Assembly (NCBI GenBank): GCA_963739845.1
Contig: CAVUBQ010000002.1
Span: 1,129,843-1,193,842, forward strand
From: Vulcanimicrobiota bacterium
Lineage (GTDB): Bacteria > Vulcanimicrobiota > Vulcanimicrobiia > Vulcanimicrobiales > Vulcanimicrobiaceae
Length of the DNA: 64,000 bases
Reading direction: 5' to 3'
The translations under genes were made by a program, and so were the position numbers. Below, one piece after another: positions 16,061-39,191 of this stretch. The notes below the pieces were generated by a model, which was not told the origin of the DNA, ran no database searches, and worked only from the letters and a program-made list of their open reading frames with translations. How positions within the stretch are numbered: position 1 is the stretch's first letter; each line of letters starts with the position of its first letter.

Positions 16061-16105
16061 CATATATCGAAAGTCACCTGACCTTTAGATCGAGCTGCGC
16101 CATTT

Positions 16106-17233
16106 ATGAACAGCACTTCCGCCCTCGAAGACACCTTGGCTTCAGCGACTCGAAATCTCGATAAGTGGATAGCACAGAACCTGGATCATTTCTCCCCTCT
16201 CGGCGGAGAAGAGGGAGACAAGCTCTGTTACAAGTTGAAAGCATTTGACGAGCTTTGTATGTACCTGTCTATCGGCGACGAGCGCACGAGCGCGCCCGTT
16301 CCACGAGAGATTCGTGACTTCGCCAGCTCCGTGTGTGTAAACCCCCGTTATCTATCAACCGTTGTCTCGTCGCCTCGAGAACTTCTCCTTTACATCTATC
16401 CAATCATATACATGGTCCGGAATCGCTTACCGTCGTGGCGCGAAATGAGGGCGTATGCGATATCGGTAATTTCCAGCGACTTGTTCTTTTCGACGGAACG
16501 TCTTCCGTGTCGACTATTGGACGCTTTGTTCTGCCTTTGGCAACTCGATCCAGGAAATGAGCGGCTGAGTCTTTTTGGAAATGCATGGTCTGTCGGGAGC
16601 GGCGCGCATCCTCCCCATGCCGGTTGGAGTACGGCTTCTGAGTATTATACGTACACGCACAGTATATTTTTTGGGACTAAGCTTGGGCTGGATTCACACG
16701 GCTATGACCTTAGCGGCAAAAATGCGCAAAGCGAGGACGCGGTCGAATTCGGGATCCTCAGGTTTCTTTCCGAATCAAACATCGATATAGCCTTAGAGCT
16801 AGTGTTGTGCCAGATGTTGCTAAAGCATAAAGATACGATCGGGGGGTCGGCCCTGTGTCTCTCCCATTTGTTTGCAGATATAGACCTCCATGGATATGCG
16901 GTTGGTCCGACGCCTGCGGGCGTTGATCTTTTTAGCGACTCCGAGAAGACCTGGTTTTGCAATTACCATACATCCCTGGTCGCGGCGATAGCGCTTCGTT
17001 ACGCCCAAGGGCGGTATCTGCCGGATTTTATTCATTCTTTGGAACGGCGGGGGGCTTCAAATATGAAGCTCTCTACGCTTTTCGAGGTAGGCTCGATATT
17101 TAAGCGGATGGCGTCCGGCGAAATGACGCTGAGCGGCGCGCAAGACACGCTTGCCGATCTTCACCATGCTTTTGGCCTGGAGTTCGCTGGACGAATCCAA
17201 CGCTACTTACATATGCTTTCGGAGTTTATCTGA
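16106..17233 (+). CDS. hypothetical protein, 375 aa, mostly helical; unknown function (lower-GC cassette)
   Basis: Long uninterrupted ORF in roughly 50 percent GC DNA. No motif I can assign with confidence. Confidence 0.7.
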   Translation: MNSTSALEDTLASATRNLDKWIAQNLDHFSPLGGEEGDKLCYKLKAFDELCMYLSIGDERTSAPVPREIRDFASSVCVNPRYLSTVVSSPRELLLYIYPIIYMVRNRLPSWREMRAYAISVISSDLFFSTERLPCRLLDALFCLWQLDPGNERLSLFGNAWSVGSGAHPPHAGWSTASEYYTYTHSIFFGTKLGLDSHGYDLSGKNAQSEDAVEFGILRFLSESNIDIALELVLCQMLLKHKDTIGGSALCLSHLFADIDLHGYAVGPTPAGVDLFSDSEKTWFCNYHTSLVAAIALRYAQGRYLPDFIHSLERRGASNMKLSTLFEVGSIFKRMASGEMTLSGAQDTLADLHHAFGLEFAGRIQRYLHMLSEFI

Positions 17234-17239
17234 ACGCGT

Positions 17240-17670
17240 TTCCCGGTTGCCACTTGAGACGTAAATCTCGTCGATGCCGAGCAACCGAGGCGTCTCCAAC
17301 TGTGTCCGCACCCAACGCGCGGCGATCGCGGCCGAGAAACTTCACGCGCCACGGGGCATGTACAGCGAAGCGCACGATCTGGTCTTTCCCGATCCGACCG
17401 GACGGCCGACGCCGGCTGCACGCCTTTCGCGACGTCTTCATCAGCGCGGCTTGTCGTGCTGGGATCCAGAGTGCATCGTTCCACACGCGGCGCCATTCAA
17501 GCGCGACGTGGATGCTGGCTCAGGGCGCAGCCGTACATTCTGTTCAAGCAGTACTCGGCCATAGCGTGCCGTCGACGACCTTAAACGTTTATGGCCACGT
17601 TGTTGCGGATCTTCAAGCCCGCGCCGTTGCGACGCTCGACGCCGGGTTCGGCAAGCAAAAAGGAGCCTAG
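17240..17670 (+). pseudogene. tyrosine recombinase (phage-type integrase), C-terminal catalytic fragment with frameshifts
   Basis: DLVFPDPTGRP in ORF 17274.., then AGIQSASFHTRRHSSATWMLAQGAAVHSVQAVLGHSVPSTTLNVYGHV in ORF 17254.. (HxxR, LGH and Y contexts). No N-terminal domain is present. Confidence 0.75.
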
Positions 17671-23952: not shown

Positions 23953-24729
23953 TCAGATCGTGACGTCGACTCCAAGTACGATCTTGGAGGTGCCCGGTAC
24001 GCCCCGCGTCCCGTACACGGAAATCCGCCCATAAAGTTCGAGCCACCGCGTCGGGTTTCGAATCGCGCCAAGATCGAAACGATTCGAAGGAGTCAGGACG
24101 GTGCTGCTCCCGCTGAATCGCAACTCCCGTGCATAGGCGGCATACATGCGCGACGAGCCATCGCTGTTAACTGGCATTGTATAGGTCGTTACGAACTGAT
24201 TGAGATCCTGGGGCAGGCGGGTTGCCGTGGCGAAGCGGTCTTGCGAAATCTTCATCAGAACATCCCACCGGCGCGACAGGCCGCCCCAACCCGATGGTAT
24301 GGGTGGTCCGAAGTAATAGTCCCCGGAAACGTAAGGGGTGTGATAGCCATCGGAAGTGCTCGGATCGGAGTGCTGATACGCGTAACCGGCGCGAACCTCG
24401 AGATGGTCGCGCCCGTCTGGGGCACTGAAACGCATTTTTACGTCAATAACGTCAAAGGGCGGATCGAAGATGCTCGCCGCCTGTTCCTCGCTCGATCCGT
24501 CGTCCTTATCGTCATCGAGCCCCGCCTGATAAGCTCGCAAAATCCTGAACCGGAGGGAGAACCCGCGCCGCGCGATCGGCCTATACTGGAGGCGAAAATT
24601 TGTTCGCACCACGCTGCGGCACCCCGACGGAGCGCTAAGGCAGGCCGTGTATGCGGGCTCGATGCCGCCAGTTAGTTTTGCTCCATCTCCCAGACACGCG
24701 CCGCTAGCACCAGCCCAAAAAAGCAGCAT
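23953..24729 (-). CDS. hypothetical beta-rich protein (possible outer-membrane beta-barrel)
   Basis: Alternating-polarity strands, e.g. LEVRAGYAYQH and RWLELYGRISVYG. I chose the Met at 24729 to avoid overlap with the divergent channel gene. Confidence 0.5.
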   Translation of the reverse strand: MLLFWAGASGACLGDGAKLTGGIEPAYTACLSAPSGCRSVVRTNFRLQYRPIARRGFSLRFRILRAYQAGLDDDKDDGSSEEQAASIFDPPFDVIDVKMRFSAPDGRDHLEVRAGYAYQHSDPSTSDGYHTPYVSGDYYFGPPIPSGWGGLSRRWDVLMKISQDRFATATRLPQDLNQFVTTYTMPVNSDGSSRMYAAYARELRFSGSSTVLTPSNRFDLGAIRNPTRWLELYGRISVYGTRGVPGTSKIVLGVDVTI

Positions 24730-24798
24730 CCCCGACGGCCAGACGACGCATCTACGCCCTCTTACCACAACGCATCGATAAATAAGGCGAACGTACCG

Positions 24799-25884
24799 AT
24801 GTTCCTGCGGGGCATCCTCGCCCATAGCGACGAATGCGACAATGTGCTGCCTGTATTCAAGCGTTATCTGACTGTTCTGACATTGCTTCCCGCTCTAGCC
24901 TTCGCCGCATCCGAGACCTCCGCGCGCGCATCCGTAGTGGGGACTCCAACTCAGTCGCACCCAATGGTCGTTCGTGTCGGGCTTGTGATCCGCAACATCA
25001 TCGCTATCGACGAGGTGAAGGAAACCTGGCAAGCTACCGGCTTACTCGTCGCAAAATGGACCGATCGAAGCCTTCGCTACCGGCCGCGCGGACGAGGGCA
25101 GCTTTTCCGCGAGCTGCCGGCCAATATGTGGAAGCCGGACTTTGAATTCACAAATGAAGCATCCCCGACACACTTCCGCTTCCTCGATCTCTACGCCGAG
25201 CCGGACGGAACGCTGACATATACTCAAGCGTTCAGCTCAACCCTATCGACCAGCTCAGATTTGCGCCGTTTTCCGTTCGACTCTCAACTCTTGCCGCTCG
25301 TCGTTCAAGCCAGCGGAGACGACCTCGACCGCACGATTCTGAAGCCGGATCGCAAGGAGTCGGCGCTGTTTAGCCGAGGCTACGTTGGTCTCGCGCACTG
25401 GGAGTCGCTTTCCCTTTCCGAACGTTTGGGGACCGTCGAAGGAACTGCCGGCCGCGCGAAGGACGTCGAGTTTGACCTCAAAGTGCGGCGCAACTCCAAG
25501 TCTTACATTTTGAAATTCATCGTGCCGCTTCTGCTGCTAGTTATTATCTCTTGGATAACGTTCTGGCTGTCGCACGAGGAGTTCAAAACTAAAGACCAGC
25601 TTCAATCGGCCGTTGCCACACTCCTGATCGTCGTCGCTTTCAATATCACCGCCTCTAACGTCTTACCGCGGACCGAATATGTCACCTATATCGACGCGCT
25701 CTTGTTCACATGTTTCATTTTCGTTATCATTTCCATCGCATCGATCGTCGGAATCCATCTCCTACAGATTAATTACTCAGCGCAGCGCGCGTTAGCCGTA
25801 CGTCGCCTCACTGGCGTCGTTCTCCCTATTGCATTTCTGATCACTCAAGTGATCTTGTTCTTCGCGTTCCACATCGCAGGATAG
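24799..25884 (+). CDS. prokaryotic pentameric ligand-gated ion channel (Cys-loop receptor superfamily homologue); alternative GTG start at 24844
   Basis: VRVGLVIRNIIAIDEVKETWQATGLLVAKWTDRSLRY, WKPDFEFTN and RRFPFDSQLLPLVV (FPFDxQ). Four TM segments (YILKFIVPLLLLVIISWITFWL ..) with a very short M3-M4 loop. Confidence 0.8.
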   Translation: MFLRGILAHSDECDNVLPVFKRYLTVLTLLPALAFAASETSARASVVGTPTQSHPMVVRVGLVIRNIIAIDEVKETWQATGLLVAKWTDRSLRYRPRGRGQLFRELPANMWKPDFEFTNEASPTHFRFLDLYAEPDGTLTYTQAFSSTLSTSSDLRRFPFDSQLLPLVVQASGDDLDRTILKPDRKESALFSRGYVGLAHWESLSLSERLGTVEGTAGRAKDVEFDLKVRRNSKSYILKFIVPLLLLVIISWITFWLSHEEFKTKDQLQSAVATLLIVVAFNITASNVLPRTEYVTYIDALLFTCFIFVIISIASIVGIHLLQINYSAQRALAVRRLTGVVLPIAFLITQVILFFAFHIAG

Positions 25885-29166: not shown

Positions 29167-29307
29167 CGTGGGCCTCCGATACAAGCATTGCGGCGCCAGC
29201 GCCCGGAACGCGCGCTTGTTGTCCCGCGCGTTTGGGTTAAGATTCAGACTTTTCTTACAGGCTGGGCGTAATCTTTAATGCGCTCCCAGACTCGGAGACG
29301 GCTGGCA

Positions 29308-30513
29308 ATGAGAACTCGATTCCTGGTCTCGATATCGTTTGCGCTCGGCCTCGCCCTGGCCGGATGCTCGTCCAACGGCAGCGGCTTCGCCGCAAATCTA
29401 GAACAGCCCACACAGGCCGCTGCGACACGAGCAACGGCCGGAACCAGCCGTTCGGTGAACTGGTCCGAGTTCGGCTTTATCCCTTCCGGCGGCAGGTTCA
29501 ACCCTCACGAGCGGATGCTCTCGACACGCAACGTGCACCGGCTGCACAAGCGGTGGTCGAGCTTTACCGGCTGCTCCGGGTCGATCTGCGGCGGCTCGTC
29601 GCCGGCGGTGGTGAACGGGGTGGTCTACGTCGGCTCCTACGACGGCAACGTGTACGCCTTCAACGCCGTCACTGGGGCCAAGCTGTGGTCTTTCCCCACC
29701 GGCGGCGAAGTGTTCTCGACGCCCGCGGTGGCGAACGGGGTGGTCTACGTCGGCTCCAACGACCAAAACGTGTACGCGCTCAACGCCGCCACAGGGGCCA
29801 AACTCTGGTCCTACGCCACCACCTACGATGTGACCTCATCGCCGGCTGTGGCCAACGGGATGGTCTACATCGGTTCTGAGGACGGCAAGCGTGTACGCGC
29901 TCAAAGCCGCCAGCGGGGCAAAGGTGTGGTCCTACGCCACCCGCCTCGTCATGATTCGTCGCCGGCTGTTGGCCAAAGGGACGGTCTACGTCGGTTCCGA
30001 GGATGGCAACGTGTACGCTCTGAACGCCGCTACGGGCGCTAAGCTCTGGTCCTACACCACACCGGAACGAGGTGTACTCGTCGCCGGCGGTGGCCAACGG
30101 CGTGGTCTACGTCGGCTCCGAGGACAGCAACGTTTACGCGCTCAACGCCGCTACCGGGGCAAAGCTCTGGTCCTACACCACCGGCGACCTGGTGAACTCG
30201 TCACCGGCGGTGGCCAACGGCGTGGTCTACGTCGGTTCGATCGACGACAACGTGTACGCCCTCAACGCCGCCAGTGGTGCCAAGCTGTGGTCTTACGCCA
30301 CCGGCAACCTCGTGCTCTCGTCGCCGGCGGTCGCCAACCACGTGGTTTACGTCGGCTCGGAAGACGGCAACGTCTACGCCCTCAACGCCGCGACGCGGCG
30401 CCAAGCTGTGGTCCTATAGCACCGGCAACCAAGTGTTCTCGTCGCCGGCGGTAGCGAACGGGGTGGTATACGTCGGCTCTGGGGACGGCAACGTGTACGC
30501 GTTCGGGCTATGA
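29308..30513 (+). CDS. PQQ-like beta-propeller repeat lipoprotein; at least 4 frame changes
   Basis: MRTRFLVSISFALGLALAGCSS, then about 8 repeats of SSPAVANGVVYVGS.DGNVYALNAATGAKLWSY.T spread over ORFs 29278, 29891, 30072 and 30274. One shift is at ggccaaaggg. Confidence 0.75.
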
Positions 30514-30905: not shown

Positions 30906-31073
30906 TCGACCGGCTGGCGCCGCCGGAAAGCTCCGACCGCGCCTAAGACCCTCATTCGGGGCCAATTTCTCGATATCGATATTTGCCGGCACGACGACGC
31001 CCGTCCCGACGGGGGCGAATGAATCACGTGCAGAACGTAGAGAGGGTACAGCCGTCCTTTGAAGGAGGTGGCA

Positions 31074-32230
31074 ATGCGTTATTCGCTCGCTCAGCCCATT
31101 CTGCTGATCGGAGTTTGTGCAGTCCTCTCGGCCTGTACCATGAGCGTAGATCCAAACGCTTCTCCAGCGAAGAGTGCGTCCGTACCGCGCCTGTCGAGCA
31201 GCAGCGGACAGTTTCTCTACGTGTCAAACATTTCCAACAACTCCGTCACAGTGTACGACCGAGGGGCCAGACTCGTCCGCCAAATAACGCAGGGCGTCAG
31301 CTTCCCCATTGCGCTCGCTTTTGATCGCTCCGGCAATTTGTACGTGGCCGACTCTGAAGGCGGCGCGGGCGGAACTACCGGAACCATTGCCGTCTACGGT
31401 TCGGGCCAAGATACTCCGACGCTGAATATTACCAACGGGATAAACCAGCCGACGTTGCTCGGTGTTGGGCCAAGCGAAGACCTCTACGTCGCAAACAGCT
31501 ATCTGGACGCCGTCAATGCGACCATAACGGTATACTCTCTGAATGACGGCAGCCTGCTGCGCACGATTCGCAGCGGGATCCACGATCCGCGGTCGATCGC
31601 GTTCGATTCCCAGGGAGACCTTTACGTCGCTAACGGATTTAGAGTCAAAAACAAGACGAGGGTCTGCGGCTGGATCACGGTCTATGCGCCTGGAGGCACC
31701 AAGATCCTTCGCACGATAAAAAAGGGACTGGATTGTCCCAGCGCGCTAGCCGTCGATCCATCAAACAGACTTTACGTGCTGAATATCAACAATCCGCCCG
31801 ATGGCCCACGTAACGGCGTGGGGAGCTGCGGCCGACAAACCATACCGCTGGGCCCTTCGTGCGCATTTATCGCCATGGTAGCGACGCGCCGTACCGCAAA
31901 CTTGACCTTCGGAGCCTTAACTACCCCGTCGCGATAGCGCTCGACAGCGACGACGATCTCTACGCGGCAAACGCTGGAAACAATACGGTAACAGTTTATA
32001 AGGCATCTCGATACAAACTCTGGTATACGATCTCGGACCAGGTCTACGCTCCGCAGGTTTTGGCGCTCAGTGATTCGGGGCAGCTCTACGTTGGAAACGA
32101 GCCGGATTCGGGAGGCTCGTATCCGCAAGGGTCCGTTACCGTCTACGGGCTCCGCAGCCAAAAGCTAGAAACGGCAATTAGCGAAGAGATCGACTATCCT
32201 GTTGCGCTGGCACTCGGCCACCACGAATAG
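31074..32230 (+). CDS. NHL-repeat beta-propeller lipoprotein, frame change near 31880
   Basis: Strong RBS gaaggaggtggca-ATG. MRYSLAQPILLIGVCAVLSAC. Repeats of LYVAN..NSVTVY / P.alAfD..GnLYVA. ORFs 31059 and 31859 join. Confidence 0.75.
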
Positions 32231-32257: not shown

Positions 32258-34823
32258 TTACGGGCCCAGGGCTTCGGCGATCGCTTCAGGTGTCGTAAGC
32301 CTGCCAGGATCATGCTCTGCCTGCAGTCGGCCGCTCGCAGCAACGTAATCATTGACCAGGACGTCTAAATGTCGACGTGCTTCGAGCTCCGTGTGTTCGC
32401 GGTTGAACGATAGTTTCCCAATGCGCTCGTCGGCGTAGGCATGCAGGCGAGCCGCTTTTGTGAATCCCCGCACAACGCCAAGCCTAAGGCGATGTGTTCT
32501 ATGGTGACCGCCGCAAAAACACCTTCGGGATCGTGCTCCCATAGTACTCGAGGGCTCGGCGCCCTGTCGCGATCGCGGCGTCAGGCTGCCCGACGGCCCC
32601 GAGATAGGCAGATTTGTTGCGCAATAAGTAGGCGAGGGGAGCGCCGTCAGGCAGCGCTTCTGCTTTCGCCAGCACTTGGTCGACGTTGGCGATCGCGCGA
32701 TCCGTCATTCCCCGCTCGTGATCCACTTCGGCGAGATTCGTAGCCGCCATGACCTCTCCAAGAGTGTTATGCATACTGCGAAAGAGCCCGCGGCTTTTTT
32801 CATACATACTCGACGCCGCCTCCAGGTCGCCGGCCAAACAACTGATAAACGCGCGCGAGTCCAGTATCTGCAGCTCTCGGCGTGTCGTGGGGGGCGACGT
32901 GCTTTCAGCCTCATCGAGCGCTTGCACGGCCGCATCGATTCGTCGCAGTCTCGCTAGACTATCGCCATAGCGCGCCAAACAATCGGCCAGCACGGACTTT
33001 GATGCTCCTCGGCGCGCATTGGCGACGGCTCGTTCGGCAGCTGCGTGGCCGTCTACGTATGATCCCGTCCGAATGAAGGCTAAAGCGGCGCGCTCGTATA
33101 CGCGCCCCACATATTCGGGTTCATCACCGAGGGCGTCGACGAAGCGCCGAACGACGTCGACTACCTCTCGATGCAGCCCTAGGTAATCCCACAAGCGCGT
33201 CGAGAGGAATATCTTTGCTGCCACGATCGACCTTTGACTCGAGAGGGCGAATTCGATCGCAGCGCGGGCGTCTTCCAGCAAGTAGGCAATCTCGGCAATG
33301 GCTTTTATCTGAAGGGTCGACTCGTAGTCCGCACCGGCCGCTTCGAAGCGCTCGCCGACATATGCTAGGTGCCTCTCGTGCAGCGCCCCATACTCTTCGG
33401 ACCGAACGGCCTTCTCTCGGGCGTAAGCGCGGAGCGATTCTAAGAGCCGGTAACGGCTCTCTGCGCCACCCGCCTCTACGACGACTAACGATTTGCTTTC
33501 GAGCGAGCCGAGGATATCCAAAACTTCGAAAACGTCGCGCTTTCGCTCGTAGCACACCGCAGCCGCCGCCTCGAGTGTAAATGCCGCGGCAAACACTTCA
33601 AGCCTACCAAATAACTCTTTATCGCGACCATCCAGTAAGTTATAGCTCCAGTCGATCGTAGCGTGAAGCGTCTGGTGCTCTGCGCGTGGGCCGCTGCTGA
33701 GGAGTTTGAAGCGCTCATTGAGCATCGCGCGTAGCTGGTTAACGCTGAGGGTCGCGGTACGCGAGGCGGCGAGTTCGATCGCGAGCGGAAGTCCGTCTAG
33801 GTGCCCACAGACCTCGGCCAACGTCGATTCATCCGCCTGAGAGAGCGTAAATCCGAAGTTCGCGGCGCGTGCACGTTCGATAAAGAGGGACCTCGCCTCG
33901 ATCGTGCTCAGCGACGGCAGCCTGTACGCTGTTTCGCCCTGAATTCCGAGCCGCGCGCGGCTAGAAGCGAGAATCGTCACTCGCGGGCACGAATCTAGCA
34001 TGCGAGACGCTATCGTGGCGCAAATATCGAGAAGATGTTCGCAGTTATCCAAAATCAGCAGGGTATTCTTGGCAACCAGGGCGTCGACCAATATCGAGAC
34101 GGCGTCGCCCGAAGTTCCGATTGCCACGCCTATCGATTGGGCAACGCGGCCCGGAACCAGGCTTTCGTCGGATATGGAGCCGAGCTCCACCAGCCAAACG
34201 CCGTCGAGATAGTTCTGCTGCAGGCTTCGCGCCACTTCGATGGCGGTACGCGTCTTGCCAACCCCTCCGGGGCCGACGATCGTTACGAGGCGCCGCGAAA
34301 TTGCTAACTCCTGGAGCGCTACGCACTCGGCCGTACGGCCGACAAAGGCGTTTCGAGCCCAGGGCAGATTATTCGCGAGCGCGGCAGCCCGGGGCGGCGC
34401 CGATAGGGAGCGGGGTTCGAGCTCTGCGAGGTTGCGTCGAATCTGCACTATCAGGTTCTCAATCGTCGCGCTGCGCGAAGCGCTGAACCCGTCGATTCGC
34501 TGTAACCCCGCAAGCAGATAGCGCAGGGCGCCGTCAGGCTGCGCCTCATCAATTCGGAGAGGAAGGATTATTTTCCGGGCGTTCTGCGCGATGTGAATCT
34601 CGTGCGCGATCTGCGCCGAACGCGCGGAGCTTGCTGATAGAATTAGAAGCACGAGTCGCGAGGCGTCAATGGCCGAAGGGATTGCTGCCGACCAATCGTG
34701 CCCCGCAAGAATATCTCTGGGGGCAATCCAGCACGAAATCCCGCTCTCTTCGAGCGCCTTACACGCTTCCTGCGCGAACTCGTGATCTGCCGAACCGTAA
34801 CTTATGAAGACCGCGCGTTGCAA
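32258..34823 (-). CDS. TIR domain / NB-ARC (STAND NTPase) / TPR protein, ~855 aa, TTG start; two frame changes near the 3' end (~32540, ~32460)
   Basis: TIR: AVFISYGSADHEFAQEACKALEESGISCWIAPRDI..LVLLILSASSARSAQIAHEIHIA. Walker A: VGPGGVGKTRTA. Walker B: LLILDNCEHL. GLPL motif: LDGLPLAIELAA. Helical TPR-like C-terminus. ORF 32258..32542 (..AARLHAYADERIGKLSF..GRLTTPEAIAEAL) reads as the usual C-terminal tail, reached through the third frame (EHDPEGVFAAVTIEHIALGLALCGDSQK). Confidence 0.8.
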
Positions 34824-35074
34824 CTTTACGTCCCTGCGGAGTCGCCTCCCATCGTGGTCACTTTTTGGCGTGACAGCGGAACCGAACTTTGGCGCTGATG
34901 TTTCGAATACCCTACCTGGAGCGGCACGGAGACACGATTCGGGCGCCGAAGCCGCACCGGAAACATCCGAAGGAATGGGCGGGTAGCGTATATTGATGGA
35001 GCCCGATTACGACCTGCTTTTCGATTGTGCTGGGCATGCCCGCGGAAAAGTCGTGATAACCCCGTGATCAGACG

Positions 35075-36064: not shown

Positions 36065-37207
36065 ATGCACGTTAACCCCCAAGCGATGTATGCTGGGCGA
36101 ATGCAGCAATCGCCCTTCAAAATCAAACGGCTCGGAATCGTCATGCGGCCCGACCCATCGCGCGAAGATGAAGTCGAAGGTGTGCTCAATCCCGGGGCGG
36201 CCCGCGGCCCCGATGGCGAGCTCTACCTATTTCCTCGTCTGGTCGGGAAGAACAACTACTCGCGCATCGGAATCGCGCGGGTGCTCTTCGACGACGAAGG
36301 AAATCCGGCCGGCGTCGAGCGCATCGGATACGCGCTCGAACCCGAGGAGCCGTACGAACTGCGCCCGGCGGAGGGAACCGGCGGCTGCGAGGATCCGCGC
36401 GTAACCTACGTCGATCCGCTCGGCCTCTACGTCATGAGCTACGTCGCATGGGGCCCCAAAGGCCCACGGATCGCGCTCGCCATTTCCGAGGACTTGCTGA
36501 AGTGGGAACGACTGGGGCTAGTCAGCTTTCAACCCGACGTGCAAGCTAAGTACAACGTCATTTTCAACAACTATCACAACAAGGATGCGGCGTTCTTTCC
36601 GGCCGCGATAACGTTGCAGGACGGGACCGACGTGCTCGGAATGCTGCACCGTCCGTTTTACGACACGGTGAAGACTGCGCCCAAGGGCATCCGCGAGCCG
36701 GTGCCGAGTATTTGGGTCTCCGGGTGCGAGCTCGATGCGGCTTTGCGCGACGTTCGCAACCTGTGCGTCATGCGCAAGCACGCGCTATTGGTCGATCCGG
36801 AACAAGCGTGGGAGAAGCTGCGCATCGGTGTTGGAACGCCGCCCGTGCAAACGCCGCTCGGCTTTCTCATGATCTATCACGGCGTCAGCGGCGTCCTCGC
36901 CCACAATGCTTCGGAACGCAATCGCGTTGAGTACGTTGCCGGAGTCCTCGTCGTTCACCGCGAGGGCGAGCAGCTGATGGAGTATCGCTCTTCGGCGCCG
37001 ATCTTGATTCCCGAGGTCGAGGAAGAGGTCCTCGGGACCGTCGATCACGTGGTTTTCCCCACCGGCGTGGACGATCGGGGGGATGGCACGCTCGACATCT
37101 ACTACGGGATGGCCGACAGGTATATCGGCGTGGCTCGCTTGCAGCTTCCGGAAGAACTCCCGCTGCACGTACAAGAGTTGATCGAGACGCGACGTCTCGA
37201 ACGGTGA
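36065..37207 (+). CDS. glycoside hydrolase family 130-like (beta-mannoside phosphorylase/glycosidase fold)
   Basis: GVLNPGAARGPDGELYLFPRLVGKNNYSRIGIARV..GGCEDPRVTYVDPLGLYVMSYVAW..IYYGMADRYIGVA. Confidence 0.7.
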   Translation: MHVNPQAMYAGRMQQSPFKIKRLGIVMRPDPSREDEVEGVLNPGAARGPDGELYLFPRLVGKNNYSRIGIARVLFDDEGNPAGVERIGYALEPEEPYELRPAEGTGGCEDPRVTYVDPLGLYVMSYVAWGPKGPRIALAISEDLLKWERLGLVSFQPDVQAKYNVIFNNYHNKDAAFFPAAITLQDGTDVLGMLHRPFYDTVKTAPKGIREPVPSIWVSGCELDAALRDVRNLCVMRKHALLVDPEQAWEKLRIGVGTPPVQTPLGFLMIYHGVSGVLAHNASERNRVEYVAGVLVVHREGEQLMEYRSSAPILIPEVEEEVLGTVDHVVFPTGVDDRGDGTLDIYYGMADRYIGVARLQLPEELPLHVQELIETRRLER

Positions 37208-37272
37208 CCCGCAAAATCGAGCGAGCCCGGCGGTAAACGCGCCGGGCTCGCATCGGGGCCTATTCCAGGATA

Positions 37273-39191
37273 CTAGTCGTTGTCGTCCCGGGGCTGTGGA
37301 AGCCGCACGGCTTTGTGCGACCCCGAGAGCTGCTGGTGCAAGTAATAGCCAGCGGTCTGGTAACCCGCCGGTAGAGATGTGGGCGACGGAATCGGACTGA
37401 TTCCGAGCGTCGCACAACTCATTTTCGGCGGGGAGGAGGGCGAGGGAATCTCGGCGAGCGACGGCAGGGTTTCCGCCGCCGCCACGGAGCTTGCCTTCGT
37501 CGAGCGCGTCGAACAAATCGGAGGTCGAGCGATCGGCGTCGGCCGGCGAGAGGCCGACCGCAACGCCCTTGGCTTCGTCCGGGAGCGACGCGAACTTCGG
37601 CAGTCCGAAGACCGCTTCGATGAGCTTCGATACCGAACCGTGATCGGCGTTGTCATGAACGACGACGCCGGTCTTGGAGAACGGCGAGATCACCAATGCC
37701 GGGATGCGAACGCCGCCGCCACACGTGTAGCCTTGCTCGGGCCCGGAACGATCCTGCGGGCAGGTCGATCCCCATTCCGGAGGATTCAGATGGTCGTAGA
37801 AACCGCCGCTGTCGTCCCACGTCACGACGATGATCGAGTCTTTCCAGTATTTGCTCTTGGCAATCGCGTTGATCACTTCAGCGAGATAGGCTTCGGCTAC
37901 CTGATGATCGGAGCTCCCGCTTCCCGGGTGATCGTCGTCGCCGACGAAGTACTTCTGGCCCGACGGGTTGTTGGTAAAGATCGGGTCGGCGGGCACCAGT
38001 CCGTACGAATTCTCGTTTCCGCCCTTCACCCAGAAGACGCCCGAGGACGGCAGCTTCCCGCCTTTGATGTCGGAGATCAAACCGTTGCCCGCGACGTTGT
38101 CGCGCAGGGTCCTCTTGCTCGCGAAGCCGGACTGCGGATTATTGATGTAGTCGAAGTAGAGCGGGGCGGTATGATGCGCGGAGAAGCCCGCGTTGGCCGT
38201 GTAAAGCCCTTCTTCGTACCAAGCCCACTTGTAGGACTGACGGTTGGTTCTGCCTTCCTTGGTGATGTCGCGACCGATGAAGCCGACGACGCGCGACTCC
38301 TTGGCCGCGCGATCCATGGCGGGGTTAAGCAGAACCGGCATCGTTGCGTAACTTTGCGCCGCGGCGCCGTCTCCGCCATACGACGTAACCGGGAACTTCA
38401 GCTGCGCCGGCGGCGGATTGTCGTCGTTGGAGATCGGTACGCCGTCGCTATAGCCGCCACTGGGAACCGGCTGCGAGAGTACGCCCTCGCCCGCGGCGGC
38501 TTCGGTCTGCCCGGTTTGACCCGCGAAGAGCTGAATGTTGCTCGGCGTCGAGTCTCCGGTGTTCGCCTGGAAGTAGTGATCGAAGAGCGTGAAGTTCTTC
38601 GCATAGTACCAGAGGTACGGGACGGTGTCGCAATCGTACACGCCCTCGATAGCGATGTTCTCATTGTGCGCTTCGATCTGCTGCGGGCTCGGGGTCGGCC
38701 CGAGCACCGGTTGTCCGGCTTCATCGTCGACTAAGAAATCGTCCATGCGGCCGCGGTCCATGGCGAACTCTTGATCGAAGCGGCCGTTGCCGCCGCCGTT
38801 GATATCGGGTGCATCTTGAACGTAGTTCGGGCTATTCGGATTCGCCGAGATCAAGAACGGACGCTGACAACCGCCGGTTTGGGGATCGGACTGGCAATCC
38901 GTCTGCTGGGCGAGGTAGGTCCCAAGGTTTTCGACGTACTGGCCGTCCATGCCGGGATAGAGCCCGTAGATTTGATCGAACGTGTGGTTCTCTTGAACGA
39001 GGACGAAAACGTGCTTGACCTTGCCGCGCACTAATTGTGCGATCCTGCCACGGGTTGCAGCATCGGCGATTTGCTGGGCGGATCCGGCCTGCGACGTCAG
39101 CGGCGCGATCAGGATACCCGCCCGCCCCTCCGCATGCCGCTAGCGCGCACGATGCCGTCAGGATTAGGATGTGTGAAGCTAATCGACGCAT
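37273..39191 (-). CDS. phosphoesterase family lipoprotein (PLC/AcpA-like); frame changes near 39110 and ~37400-37500
   Basis: Lipoprotein signal MRRLASHILILTASCALAACGG (ORF 38832..39191), then GILIAPLTSQ..LVRGKVKHVFVLVQENHTFDQIYG.. (ORF 36785..39031). The likely true C-terminus ..LPAGYQTAGYYLHQQLSGSHKAVRLPQPRDDND is in ORF 37273..37656. Confidence 0.8.

What the first reader, a model, noticed from the sequence alone, without database searches (positions are those of the whole stretch)
32258..34823. Stand-alone TIR / NB-ARC / TPR protein with plant-TNL-like architecture: candidate NAD-consuming immune sensor
Seen in sequence:
- The N-terminal ~130 aa have the TIR pattern (VFISYGSADHE.., ..SCWIAPRDI.., ..LVLLILSASSARSAQIAHEIHIA). 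The Glu in AHEIH is where catalytic TIR NADases carry theirs.
- A P-loop NTPase follows, with Walker A GPGGVGKTRTA, Walker B LLILDNCEHL and the NB-ARC hallmark GLPLAIELAA.
- After that come ~350 aa of TPR-like helices.
- The gene has its own ~250-bp upstream intergenic region and no obvious partner gene.

Established knowledge: bacterial TIR domains act as NADase or signal-generating effectors in Thoeris, CBASS-associated and Avs/NACHT-type defences. STAND NTPases act as oligomerising sensors.

Inference: this could be a one-gene sensor-effector. TIR fused to this AfsR/COG3903-like NB-ARC-TPR module is, to my knowledge, not experimentally characterised. Two apparent frame changes near the 3' end must be resolved before deciding whether the gene is intact.
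Basis: partly seen in the sequence, partly recalled or inferred. Interest (0 to 1): 0.7.

Follow-up and report, generated by a model that had tools for sequence, protein, structure and literature searches.

The report
Bacterial TIR–NB-ARC–TPR switch protein
This is a real gene for a large bacterial switch protein that joins an NAD-cleaving TIR domain to an ATP-driven sensor, like a plant immune receptor; the design is already known from genome surveys, nothing here shows it is an immune gene, and its broken 3' end is probably a sequencing artefact.

Summary
On the minus strand, 34823→32258 encodes a TIR_2 domain (E=2.9e-23), an NB-ARC-type ATPase with all its motifs, a winged helix and about 350 aa of TPR helices. 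The AlphaFold model is confident (pLDDT 90). Its best structural matches are the plant TIR-NLR RPP1, the archaeal STAND-TPR protein PH0952 and Apaf-1. Glu75 (AHEIH) is invariant in 36 homologues.

Two 1-nt deletions in short homopolymers (~32538, ~32463) break the last 90 codons. Adding one base at each gives an 855-aa protein that matches intact 859–889-aa homologues. At least four other genes in the window also change frame, so assembly error is more likely than decay.

The immune reading is only partly supported:
- The ATPase–TPR module belongs to the AfsR/COG3903-like clade. Its N-terminus is interchangeably TIR, class III cyclase, GGDEF or HTH.
- No defence or mobile genes flank this gene. 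None flank ten homologous loci either.
- PADLOC matches only the TIR domain.
- In some relatives a SLOG–membrane protein is adjacent. This suggests the TIR may make a signal rather than only consume NAD.

Verdict: a new member of a known kind, of modest interest.

The parts
32258..34823 (-). Whole TIR-NB-ARC-wHTH-TPR gene. It is 774 aa as it stands (stop at 32499-32501) and 855 aa after two 1-nt repairs (stop at 32258-32260).
   Evidence: Intact homologues are 859-889 aa.
34452..34811 (-). TIR domain (residues 5-124). It includes the invariant CWIAPRD motif (34713-34733) at the start of the BB-loop region.
   Evidence: Pfam TIR_2 E=2.9e-23. Profile hits to TIR-STING, Cat1, ROQ1, SPARTA TIR-APAZ, AbTir and SARM1 structures.
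34599..34601 (-). Codon of Glu75 (AHEIH), the predicted catalytic glutamate of the TIR NADase site.
   Evidence: Invariant in 36/36 TIR-type homologues. It aligns with the conserved Glu of TIR-STING and TLR TIR domains.
34377..34418 (-). Flexible linker (residues 136-149) between the TIR and the ATPase.
   Evidence: pLDDT < 50 in the AF2 model.
33642..34295 (-). NB-ARC-type nucleotide-binding domain (residues 177-394). It holds Walker A (34248-34274), Walker B LLILDNCEH (34035-34061), the S-R sensor motif (33957-33968) and DGLPLAIELAA (33765-33797).
   Evidence: Pfam NB-ARC 26.9 bits, above the cut-off of 23.5. The motifs are invariant. Foldseek hits RPP1, Apaf-1, ZAR1, NRC and CED-4.
33399..33629 (-). 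Winged-helix domain (residues 399-475). RYRLLE sits where NB-ARC proteins carry MHD, and there is no His.
   Evidence: PF25872 HTH_77 is precomputed for this same gene product, P0001. Secondary structure. The motif was read by eye.
32261..33398 (-). C-terminal TPR-like helical sensor (residues 476-855 of the repaired protein).
   Evidence: TPR_12 E=1.7e-9. All-helical hairpins in the model. PH0952 6mfv TM 0.50/0.59.
32536..32538 (-). Frameshift 1. A GGG run where homologues imply GGGG, so one base is missing.
   Evidence: alignment with P0002.
32462..32464 (-). Frameshift 2. GATTCA where GATTTCA restores ...CGDFTKAARL..., so one base is missing.
34824..35074 (.). 251-bp divergent intergenic region, with a weak AGGGA 7 nt upstream of the TTG start. 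The consensus scan found no promoter-like site here.

Best explanation
What it is: a TIR-output member of the AfsR/COG3903-like branch of STAND (AP-ATPase/NB-ARC) NTPases. It most likely comes from an Eremiobacterota genome.

Shown:
- The order of domains is a complete TIR domain, a flexible linker, NBD-HD-winged helix, then a TPR solenoid.
- All catalytic and nucleotide-binding residues are intact.

Inferred mechanism:
1. In the resting, ADP-bound state the TPR arm packs on the ATPase, and the TIR domains stay apart.
2. An unknown ligand bound by the TPR sensor allows nucleotide exchange and oligomerisation.
3. Oligomerisation brings TIR domains together, and composite NAD+-cleaving sites form around Glu75.
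4. The product either drains NAD+ or, as I think slightly more likely from related loci, is an ADP-ribose-derived signal. That signal would be read by a SLOG-membrane effector encoded elsewhere in the genome.

The trigger could be a phage protein or an endogenous or stress cue; this is undetermined.

The two 3' frameshifts are most likely assembly indels, so the gene is probably intact in the organism.
For: - Domains and motifs.
- Model: pLDDT 89.9, pTM 0.77. Foldseek gives RPP1 E=8e-14, PH0952 E=1e-13 with TM 0.5-0.59, then Apaf-1, ZAR1, NRC, CED-4 and ROQ1.
- AfsR E~2e-32 over the NOD-TPR; NCBIfam AfsR 1e-16.
- Purifying selection: only 6 of 101 columns that are at least 90% conserved deviate, within the range of 0-9 seen in intact homologues.
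- Repair: one base added at each of two short homopolymers gives 855 aa, collinear with P0002.
- Other frame-broken genes in the window: PQQ propeller with at least 5 shifts, NHL, phosphoesterase, and one at ~17.4 kb.
- SLOG-membrane link to TIR proteins in four different gene arrangements. The window's TIR is most similar (49-53% identity) to the TIRs of the operonic group.
- Precedent: Thoeris type VII (TIR plus SLATT effector) and type III (TIR plus SLOG effector), preprint 10.64898/2025.12.03.692087.
Against: - There are no biochemical data for any member of this clade.
- No SLOG-membrane gene, nor any other candidate receptor, lies in the 64-kb window.
- No defence genes flank this or the homologous loci.
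- The NOD-TPR module is otherwise attached to regulatory outputs.
- The frameshifts are present in the public assembly as well. P0001 has the same truncated C-terminus, so they could be real.
- The NOD branch of this protein is long.
Confidence: 0.55

Rival explanations
1. Self-contained abortive-infection sensor-effector. The TPR recognises a phage protein, and the oligomerised TIR depletes NAD+ and stops the infected cell. No partner is needed, as is assumed for TIR-bearing Avs and bNACHT proteins.
For: - It stands alone in the window.
- The catalytic Glu is invariant.
- The best PADLOC matches are NAD-depleting TIRs, namely pAgo-associated TIR and SAVED-TIR.
- In one syntenic group the TPR diverges faster than the NOD, for example P0007 against P0008 at 72% and 93% identity.
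- The field treats stand-alone and Avs TIRs as NAD-depleting effectors.
Against: - No Avs or NACHT model matches.
- It is not in a defence island here, nor in ten homologous loci.
- Some orthologues hold a conserved position next to trmD-rplS-lepB-rnhB across genomes.
- Relatives have an adjacent SLOG-membrane gene, which argues for signalling.
Confidence: 0.25
2. Non-immune signal-transduction STAND. The TIR is simply one more output module of a regulatory ATPase family, alongside cyclase, GGDEF and HTH. It would make or consume an NAD-derived metabolite in response to an endogenous or environmental cue.
For: - The NOD tree interleaves TIR, cyclase, XRE, LuxR, OmpR and GGDEF types. The window's nearest NODs are a GGDEF protein (P0009) and a TIR protein (P0002).
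- Single chains combine TIR with cyclase (P0012, P0108) or TIR with XRE (P0103).
- Neighbourhoods are housekeeping and synteny is conserved.
- AfsR is the closest solved relative.
- STAND surveys place AfsR, MalT and GutR in non-immune clades that are intermingled with defence clades (PMC12803255).
Against: - As far as I know, all enzymatically characterised bacterial TIR domains act in conflict systems.
- The SLOG-membrane partner in relatives looks like a cell-killing effector.
- No downstream regulatory target is evident.
Confidence: 0.15
3. Decaying pseudogene. The two frameshifts are genuine, and the protein lacks its last ~90 residues or is not made.
For: - The frameshifts are in the public assembly too.
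- The branch is long.
- There is no close orthologue: the next hit is 44% identical among 5.8 billion proteins.
Against: - Conserved columns are retained as well as in intact homologues.
- There are no stops in the 92 corrected codons, and they clearly resemble P0002.
- Both lesions are single-base losses in homopolymers.
- Several unrelated neighbouring genes show the same kind of lesion.
- Related contigs are long-read MAG assemblies, judging from the record names. That the window comes from such an assembly is an inference.
Confidence: 0.3

Closest known systems
AfsR of Streptomyces coelicolor (PDB 8JKE/8K60) and the wider COG3903 'predicted ATPase' family, with LuxR, XRE, OmpR or class III cyclase N- or C-terminal outputs
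   Same: - The NOD-winged helix-TPR module is homologous: profile E~2e-32 over positions 129-720 and NCBIfam AfsR 1e-16.
- The conserved motifs are the same (GxGGxGKTR, LDNCEH, GxPLAIELAA, RYRLLE).
   Different: - It has no SARP or other DNA-binding domain. The N-terminus is a TIR domain.
- Its score is far below the AfsR equivalog cut-off (60 bits against 1430).
- The output is presumably enzymatic, not transcriptional.
Plant TIR-NLRs (RPP1, ROQ1) and plant TNPs (TIR-NB-ARC-TPR)
   Same: - The domain order is the same, and for TNPs the repeat type (TPR) is also the same.
- RPP1 is the top structural match over TIR plus NB-ARC.
- The catalytic Glu is conserved.
- Bacterial TIR-NB-TPR proteins are already noted as look-alikes of TNPs (PMC9806590).
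   Different: - It has TPR, not LRR, so it differs from TNLs.
- No MHD histidine was seen.
- By sequence the NOD is closer to AfsR than to plant NB-ARC.
- PMC9806590 reports that the similarity between bacterial proteins and TNPs lies in the NB domain only, not in the TIR or the TPR.
PH0952 of Pyrococcus horikoshii (PDB 6MFV), a STAND ATPase with a TPR sensor
   Same: It is the best full-length structural superposition of NOD plus TPR (TM 0.50/0.59 over 632 columns). That structure is of a closed, autoinhibited form.
   Different: It has no TIR domain, identity is only 14%, and its function is also unknown.
Antiviral STAND NTPases with TIR effectors (Avs/AVAST, bNACHT)
   Same: The logic is the same: a STAND sensor with an N-terminal effector that acts after oligomerisation. 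TIR N-termini are reported in these families.
   Different: - No PADLOC Avs model matches.
- The NACHT hit is insignificant (E=0.033).
- The gene is not defence-island associated.
Thoeris type VII (TIR plus SLATT effector, cADPR signal) and type III (TIRs plus SLOG effector)
   Same: In related loci the TIR-STAND is operonic with, or close to, a SLOG-fold protein with a SLATT/DUF4231-like membrane domain. This is the same producer-receptor logic.
   Different: - Here the TIR is fused to a STAND sensor, rather than being a small ThsB-like protein.
- No partner lies in this window.
- ThsB models hit only weakly (E=0.01-0.05).

Membership tests
TIR domain NADases | TIR fold or profile match | tested here: met
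   TIR_2 E=2.9e-23. Profile hits to more than 40 TIR structures.
TIR domain NADases | Catalytic glutamate in the helix after strand C | tested here: met
   Glu75 is invariant in 36 homologues and aligns with the conserved Glu of TIR-STING and TLR TIRs. I did not obtain a residue-level overlay on SARM1, RPP1 or SPARTA.
TIR domain NADases | NAD+ cleavage activity | not testable with these tools
   Needs an enzyme assay.
STAND / NB-ARC (AP-ATPase) NTPases | P-loop, Walker B, GLPL-type motif, and NBD-HD-WHD fold | tested here: met
   NB-ARC scores above the gathering cut-off. The motifs are invariant. Foldseek hits RPP1, Apaf-1, CED-4, ZAR1 and NRC.
STAND / NB-ARC (AP-ATPase) NTPases | MHD motif in the winged helix | tested here: not met
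   The equivalent position reads RYRLLE with no His. This was read by eye. It is typical of the AfsR-like bacterial branch.
Plant TNL | C-terminal LRR sensor | tested here: not met
   TPR_12 and TPR_2 hits, no LRR hit, and an all-helical C-terminus.
Plant TNP (TIR-NB-ARC-TPR) | TIR, NB-ARC and TPR domains in that order | tested here: met
Plant TNP (TIR-NB-ARC-TPR) | Phylogenetic membership in the plant TNP clade | not tested
   No plant sequences were compared. By sequence the nearest solved NOD is AfsR. PMC9806590 says the bacterial TIRs and TPRs are not TNP-like.
AfsR / SARP regulators | N-terminal SARP (OmpR-type plus BTA) DNA-binding domain | tested here: not met
   The AfsR match covers only profile positions 265-883. 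The score is 60 bits against a cut-off of 1430. The N-terminus is a TIR domain.
AfsR / SARP regulators | Homologous NOD-TPR module | tested here: met
Avs (AVAST) 1-5 / bNACHT | Match to a family STAND model | tested here: not met
   No Avs model reaches E<=0.1 in PADLOC. NACHT E=0.033, below the cut-off.
Avs (AVAST) 1-5 / bNACHT | Enrichment in defence islands | tested here: not met
   No defence or mobile genes occur within about 10 kb here, nor in L001-L009, L016-L019 and L097/98. The sample is small, and defence models were not run on every neighbour.
Thoeris-like TIR signalling system | Adjacent effector with a signal-binding domain (SLOG, Macro or SLATT) | tested here: not met
   None is found in the window (hmmsearch at E<=10). 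The feature is met in the related loci L005-L007.
Thoeris-like TIR signalling system | TIR produces a discrete signalling nucleotide | not testable with these tools
   Needs LC-MS of the reaction products.

The most novel reading that the evidence does not exclude
The protein is the receptor and signal-generator half of a split pathway that resembles plant TNL signalling. A STAND sensor would gate a TIR that makes a cADPR-type messenger. The executor would be a separately encoded SLOG-membrane protein. That protein is adjacent in some Eremiobacterota and Acidobacteriota relatives and elsewhere in the genome in others. This would be a bacterial counterpart of the plant route from NLR-TIR through a small molecule to a membrane executor, placed in a STAND clade so far regarded as regulatory.
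Probability: 0.2. Interest if true: 0.65.

Novelty: new member of a known kind. Interest (0 to 1): 0.3.

Why it matters
On its own it adds one more uncharacterised TIR-STAND protein from an uncultured soil phylum.

Its value is as an entry point. This STAND clade uses one ATPase-TPR switch with interchangeable outputs: TIR, cyclase, GGDEF and HTH. In relatives the TIR version is linked to a SLOG-membrane protein.

If the TIR proves to be a gated signal generator, the family would connect bacterial regulatory STANDs, Thoeris-type signalling and plant TNL/TNP receptors. It would also offer a simple bacterial model for how NLR oligomerisation switches on a TIR enzyme.

Tried and rejected
- Source contig: looking up P0001 found no record. 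Cluster look-up gave no name or accession. The source genome is not among the GTDB representatives.
- TIR-only protein search: one hit only, because the word index is weak for short queries. This was not informative.
- PDB entry 9m0n: an 824-aa 'tetratricopeptide repeat protein' with an N-terminal TIR. I found no paper. It was not among the top 50 Foldseek hits of the full model, so it is probably not an NB-ARC protein. Left open.
- Suspected frame-broken ORF pairs elsewhere: five pairs were tested with Pfam and turned out to be separate genes.
- Homology-based frameshift scan with local blastx: low power, one extra event at ~17.4 kb.
- NHL-repeat gene as a conserved partner: rejected. NHL genes are abundant (at least 5 in the window). 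The conserved convergent ~700-aa lipoprotein of related loci is not homologous to the window's NHL gene.
- Programmed frameshifting: rejected. Both shifts go in the same direction, there is no slippery site, and homologues are collinear in one frame.
- Promoter and terminator scan: nothing meaningful.
Full report
**1. What is in the sequence**

The minus strand carries an ORF from TTG 34823 to a stop at 32499-32501, 774 aa long. Pfam gives these hits:
- TIR_2, residues 5-124, E=2.9e-23.
- TIR, E=2.5e-8.
- NB-ARC, residues 177-394, 26.9 bits against a gathering cut-off of 23.5.
- AAA_22 and AAA_16.
- TPR_12, residues 693-761, E=1.7e-9.

TTG 34823 is the first possible start after the upstream stop. 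It is also the only start that keeps strand A of the TIR (VFISY), and homologues begin at the same point. The public assembly's own gene call, P0001, is 99% identical. It starts at an internal Val58 and therefore loses half the TIR domain. That looks like an annotation artefact.

Upstream lies a 251-bp gap and then a divergent alpha/beta-hydrolase gene.

**2. The 3' end**

Three-frame translation shows the reading frame moving twice. It runs ...ALEYYG, then EHDPEGVFAAVTIEHIALGLALCGD, then FTKAARLHAYADERIGKLSFNREHTE...EALGP*.

- Adding one G to a GGG run (~32538) and one T to a TT (~32463) yields an 855-aa ORF that ends at 32258-32260.
- The restored tail is collinear with intact homologues. 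For example, P0002 reads ...FYEHVDPGGVFAAVTVEHLALIAALEGDFERAVFLEGYADKAL..LGFEREYTE.
- Intact TIR-type homologues are 859-889 aa long.
- The protein departs from columns that are at least 90% conserved at 6 of 101 positions. Intact homologues depart at 0 to 9. There is therefore no sign of relaxed selection.

Other genes in the window are also frame-broken:
- a PQQ beta-propeller gene, split over four ORFs with at least five frame changes at 29.85-30.45 kb;
- the adjacent NHL gene, at ~31.8 kb;
- a phosphoesterase gene, which loses its stop near a G-run at ~37.44 kb and runs into the antisense strand of the GH130 gene;
- one more gene, at ~17.4 kb.

Many other genes are intact. Related contigs come from long-read soil MAG projects, judging by their record names. 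I infer that the frameshifts are more likely assembly indels (about 0.65-0.7) than real lesions. Only reads can decide.

**3. Structure**

An AlphaFold2 model built on 36 homologues is confident, with pLDDT 89.9 and pTM 0.77. Only the linker 136-149 and the artificial C-terminus are disordered.

Foldseek against the PDB returns:
- the plant TIR-NLR RPP1 first, E=7.9e-14 over 540 columns, spanning TIR plus NB-ARC;
- the archaeal STAND-TPR protein PH0952 (6MFV), E=1.1e-13, TM 0.50/0.59 over 632 columns;
- then Apaf-1, ZAR1, NRC2/3/4, CED-4, ROQ1 and WRR4A.

By sequence the only solved relative of the NOD-TPR is AfsR, with profile E~2e-32. NCBIfam AfsR gives 1e-16, far below its cut-off.

The TIR profile matches TIR-STING, Cat1, PdTIR, ROQ1, SPARTA TIR-APAZ, AbTir, SARM1 and RUN1.

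In 36 TIR-type homologues the following are invariant: D13, CWIAPR (31-36), G41, S63, S69, Glu75, the P-loop G184-R192, D259/C261, and D343-G344...E350-L351-A352.

**4. Family and evolution**

The full-length search returned more than 7,000 relatives.
- Apart from the gene's own record, the best hit is only 44% identical. No close orthologue is known.
- By my count, among the top 120 hits about 40 carry TIR_2 and about 45 carry a class III cyclase. About 14 carry an XRE HTH, 12 an OmpR-type HTH, 3 LuxR and 1 GGDEF.
- A neighbour-joining tree of the NOD region interleaves these types. The window protein sits on a long branch with a GGDEF protein (P0009) and a TIR protein (P0002).
- Single chains combine TIR with cyclase (P0012, P0108) or TIR with XRE (P0103).
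- The window protein is itself a mosaic. Its TIR is 49-53% identical to 'group B' TIRs (P0018/38/41/43), but its NOD and TPR are closest to P0002 and 'group A'.
- Named relatives come from Eremiobacterota (Cybelea, Baltobacteraceae), Armatimonadota, Chloroflexota, Eisenbacteria and others. Only 4 of the best 80 GTDB loci are of the TIR type.

**5. Genomic context**

Within about 12 kb of the gene the window encodes:
- a cupin, a pentameric ligand-gated channel and a CMD protein;
- NHL and PQQ propellers;
- an alpha/beta hydrolase, GH130 and a phosphoesterase;
- a fatty-acid desaturase and KatG.

Further out are oxidoreductases, an Asp-protease-PDZ protein and polysaccharide genes. No defence or mobile genes were seen, and there is no second family member. 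PADLOC matches only TIR-level models.

Homologous TIR-type loci:
- Group A (P0003/4/5/7) holds a conserved position after trmD-rplS-lepB-ylqF-rnhB...Usp.
- Group A and the closest homologue, P0002/P0242, share a convergent ~700-aa lipoprotein gene.
- The Armatimonadota and Eremiobacterota loci L016, L017 and L019 lie next to rpsB-tsf, pilin/T2SSE, TolC and glycine-cleavage genes.

None of this looks like a defence island.

**6. A lead from relatives**

In group B (P0018, P0043) a 521-554-aa gene lies immediately upstream of the TIR-STAND gene and overlaps it by 4 nt.
- A homologue of this gene lies 3.5 kb from the TIR-STAND gene P0007.
- This family has weak but consistent hits to SLOG-type models (YAcAr, DprA, PADLOC ShosA) and to DUF4231/SLATT.
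- Its model (pLDDT 87) has an N-terminal SLOG fold. The best matches are YpsA 2NX2 at E=1.3e-4 and TMt 0.64, then ShosA, DprA and LOG. Long helices follow.
- Members also sit beside other TIR proteins. One arrangement has a 564-aa TIR protein plus a cyclase-NOD-TPR in Cybelea. Another has a TIR-TIR-AAA protein plus an AAA_35 protein in Bryobacteraceae.
- In P0003's genome the member lies ~1.3 Mb from the TIR-STAND gene.

This matches the producer-receptor logic of Thoeris type VII (TIR plus SLATT, cADPR signal) and type III (TIR plus SLOG) (preprint 10.64898/2025.12.03.692087). The window has no such gene.

**7. Mechanism and verdict**

The best-supported model is a nucleotide-switch STAND. 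Ligand-driven oligomerisation would assemble TIR domains into an NAD+-cleaving site around Glu75. The steps that are shown are the domains, the residues and the fold. The steps that are inferred are autoinhibition, oligomerisation, NADase activity, the nature of the product and the trigger.

Three outcomes remain open: a signal for a distant SLOG-membrane effector, bulk NAD+ depletion, or a non-immune regulatory role.

The architecture is already known. Bacterial TIR-NB-TPR proteins are noted in PMC9806590, and TIR N-termini in bacterial NLR-like proteins are noted in PMC10952240 and in the Thoeris preprint. No member of this clade has been tested, as far as the searched literature shows.

I rate the finding as a new member of a known kind, with an interest of about 0.3.

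Noticed in passing
L005:8412-9977, L006:5607-7271, L008:16233-17828, L092:8001-9740, L095:8001-9737 (not in the window): A widespread family of ~520-630-aa proteins annotated as hypothetical: 436 hits at E<=1e-5, of which some carry DUF4231/SLATT Pfam hits. They have an N-terminal SLOG fold and a long helical, presumably membrane, C-terminus. They sit next to TIR-domain proteins in four different gene arrangements. In one they form an operon with TIR-NOD-TPR proteins whose TIR is the closest relative of the window's TIR. This looks like a Thoeris-like producer-effector pair in which the TIR is fused to a STAND sensor.
   Followed up: partly
window 29278-30513 (+): A PQQ-type beta-propeller lipoprotein gene is split over four ORFs in three frames, with at least five frame changes in ~600 nt. 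The repeat consensus is perfectly preserved throughout. This is most simply explained by assembly or polishing errors in tandem repeats.
   Followed up: partly
window 31059-32230 (+): An NHL-repeat lipoprotein gene, convergent with the TIR-STAND gene with a 27-nt gap between the stops, is broken by at least one frameshift near 31.8 kb. NHL-repeat genes are very abundant in this window (also at ~18.2-19.0, 26.5-27.7 and 45.6-46.9 kb).
   Followed up: partly
window 36785-39031 (-), around 37440: A phosphoesterase (PLC/AcpA-type) gene loses its reading frame near a G-run coding GGGG. Its ORF then runs 422 nt into the antisense strand of the GH130 gene. Another frame gives a plausible C-terminus that stops at about 37270.
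   Followed up: partly
window ~17400 (+), ORFs 16082-17233 and 17104-17670: Two blastx matches to one ORF of a related locus (L081) lie in different frames. This is another candidate frameshift.
   Followed up: no
L001:12637-14901, L002:12643-14883, L003:12621-14657, L008:12665-14791, L097:12489-14483: A ~680-750-aa lipoprotein gene with no Pfam family is conserved (34-65% identity). It is convergent with TIR-NOD-TPR genes and touches or overlaps their 3' ends, in loci whose other flanks differ. Its meaning is unknown. The window has a non-homologous NHL lipoprotein in the same position.
   Followed up: partly
P0012, P0108, P0103 (homologues, not in the window): Single polypeptides combine TIR, class III cyclase, NOD and TPR, or TIR, XRE HTH and NOD. 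These are unusual double-output STAND proteins.
   Followed up: partly
window 24676-25884 (+): A prokaryotic pentameric ligand-gated ion channel homologue (Neur_chan_LBD E=1.2e-16 plus Neur_chan_memb).
   Followed up: no
PDB 9m0n/9umd (external): A solved 824-aa 'tetratricopeptide repeat protein' with an N-terminal TIR matched the TIR profile weakly (E=0.08). I found no paper for it. It could be a relevant TIR-TPR protein.
   Followed up: partly
L048, L065, L069 (related loci): The 61-aa ORF and the convergent kumamolisin/S8-like peptidase gene that follow group-B TIR-STAND genes also follow family members in which my TIR profile found no TIR. The same locus may therefore carry different N-terminal outputs.
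   Followed up: no
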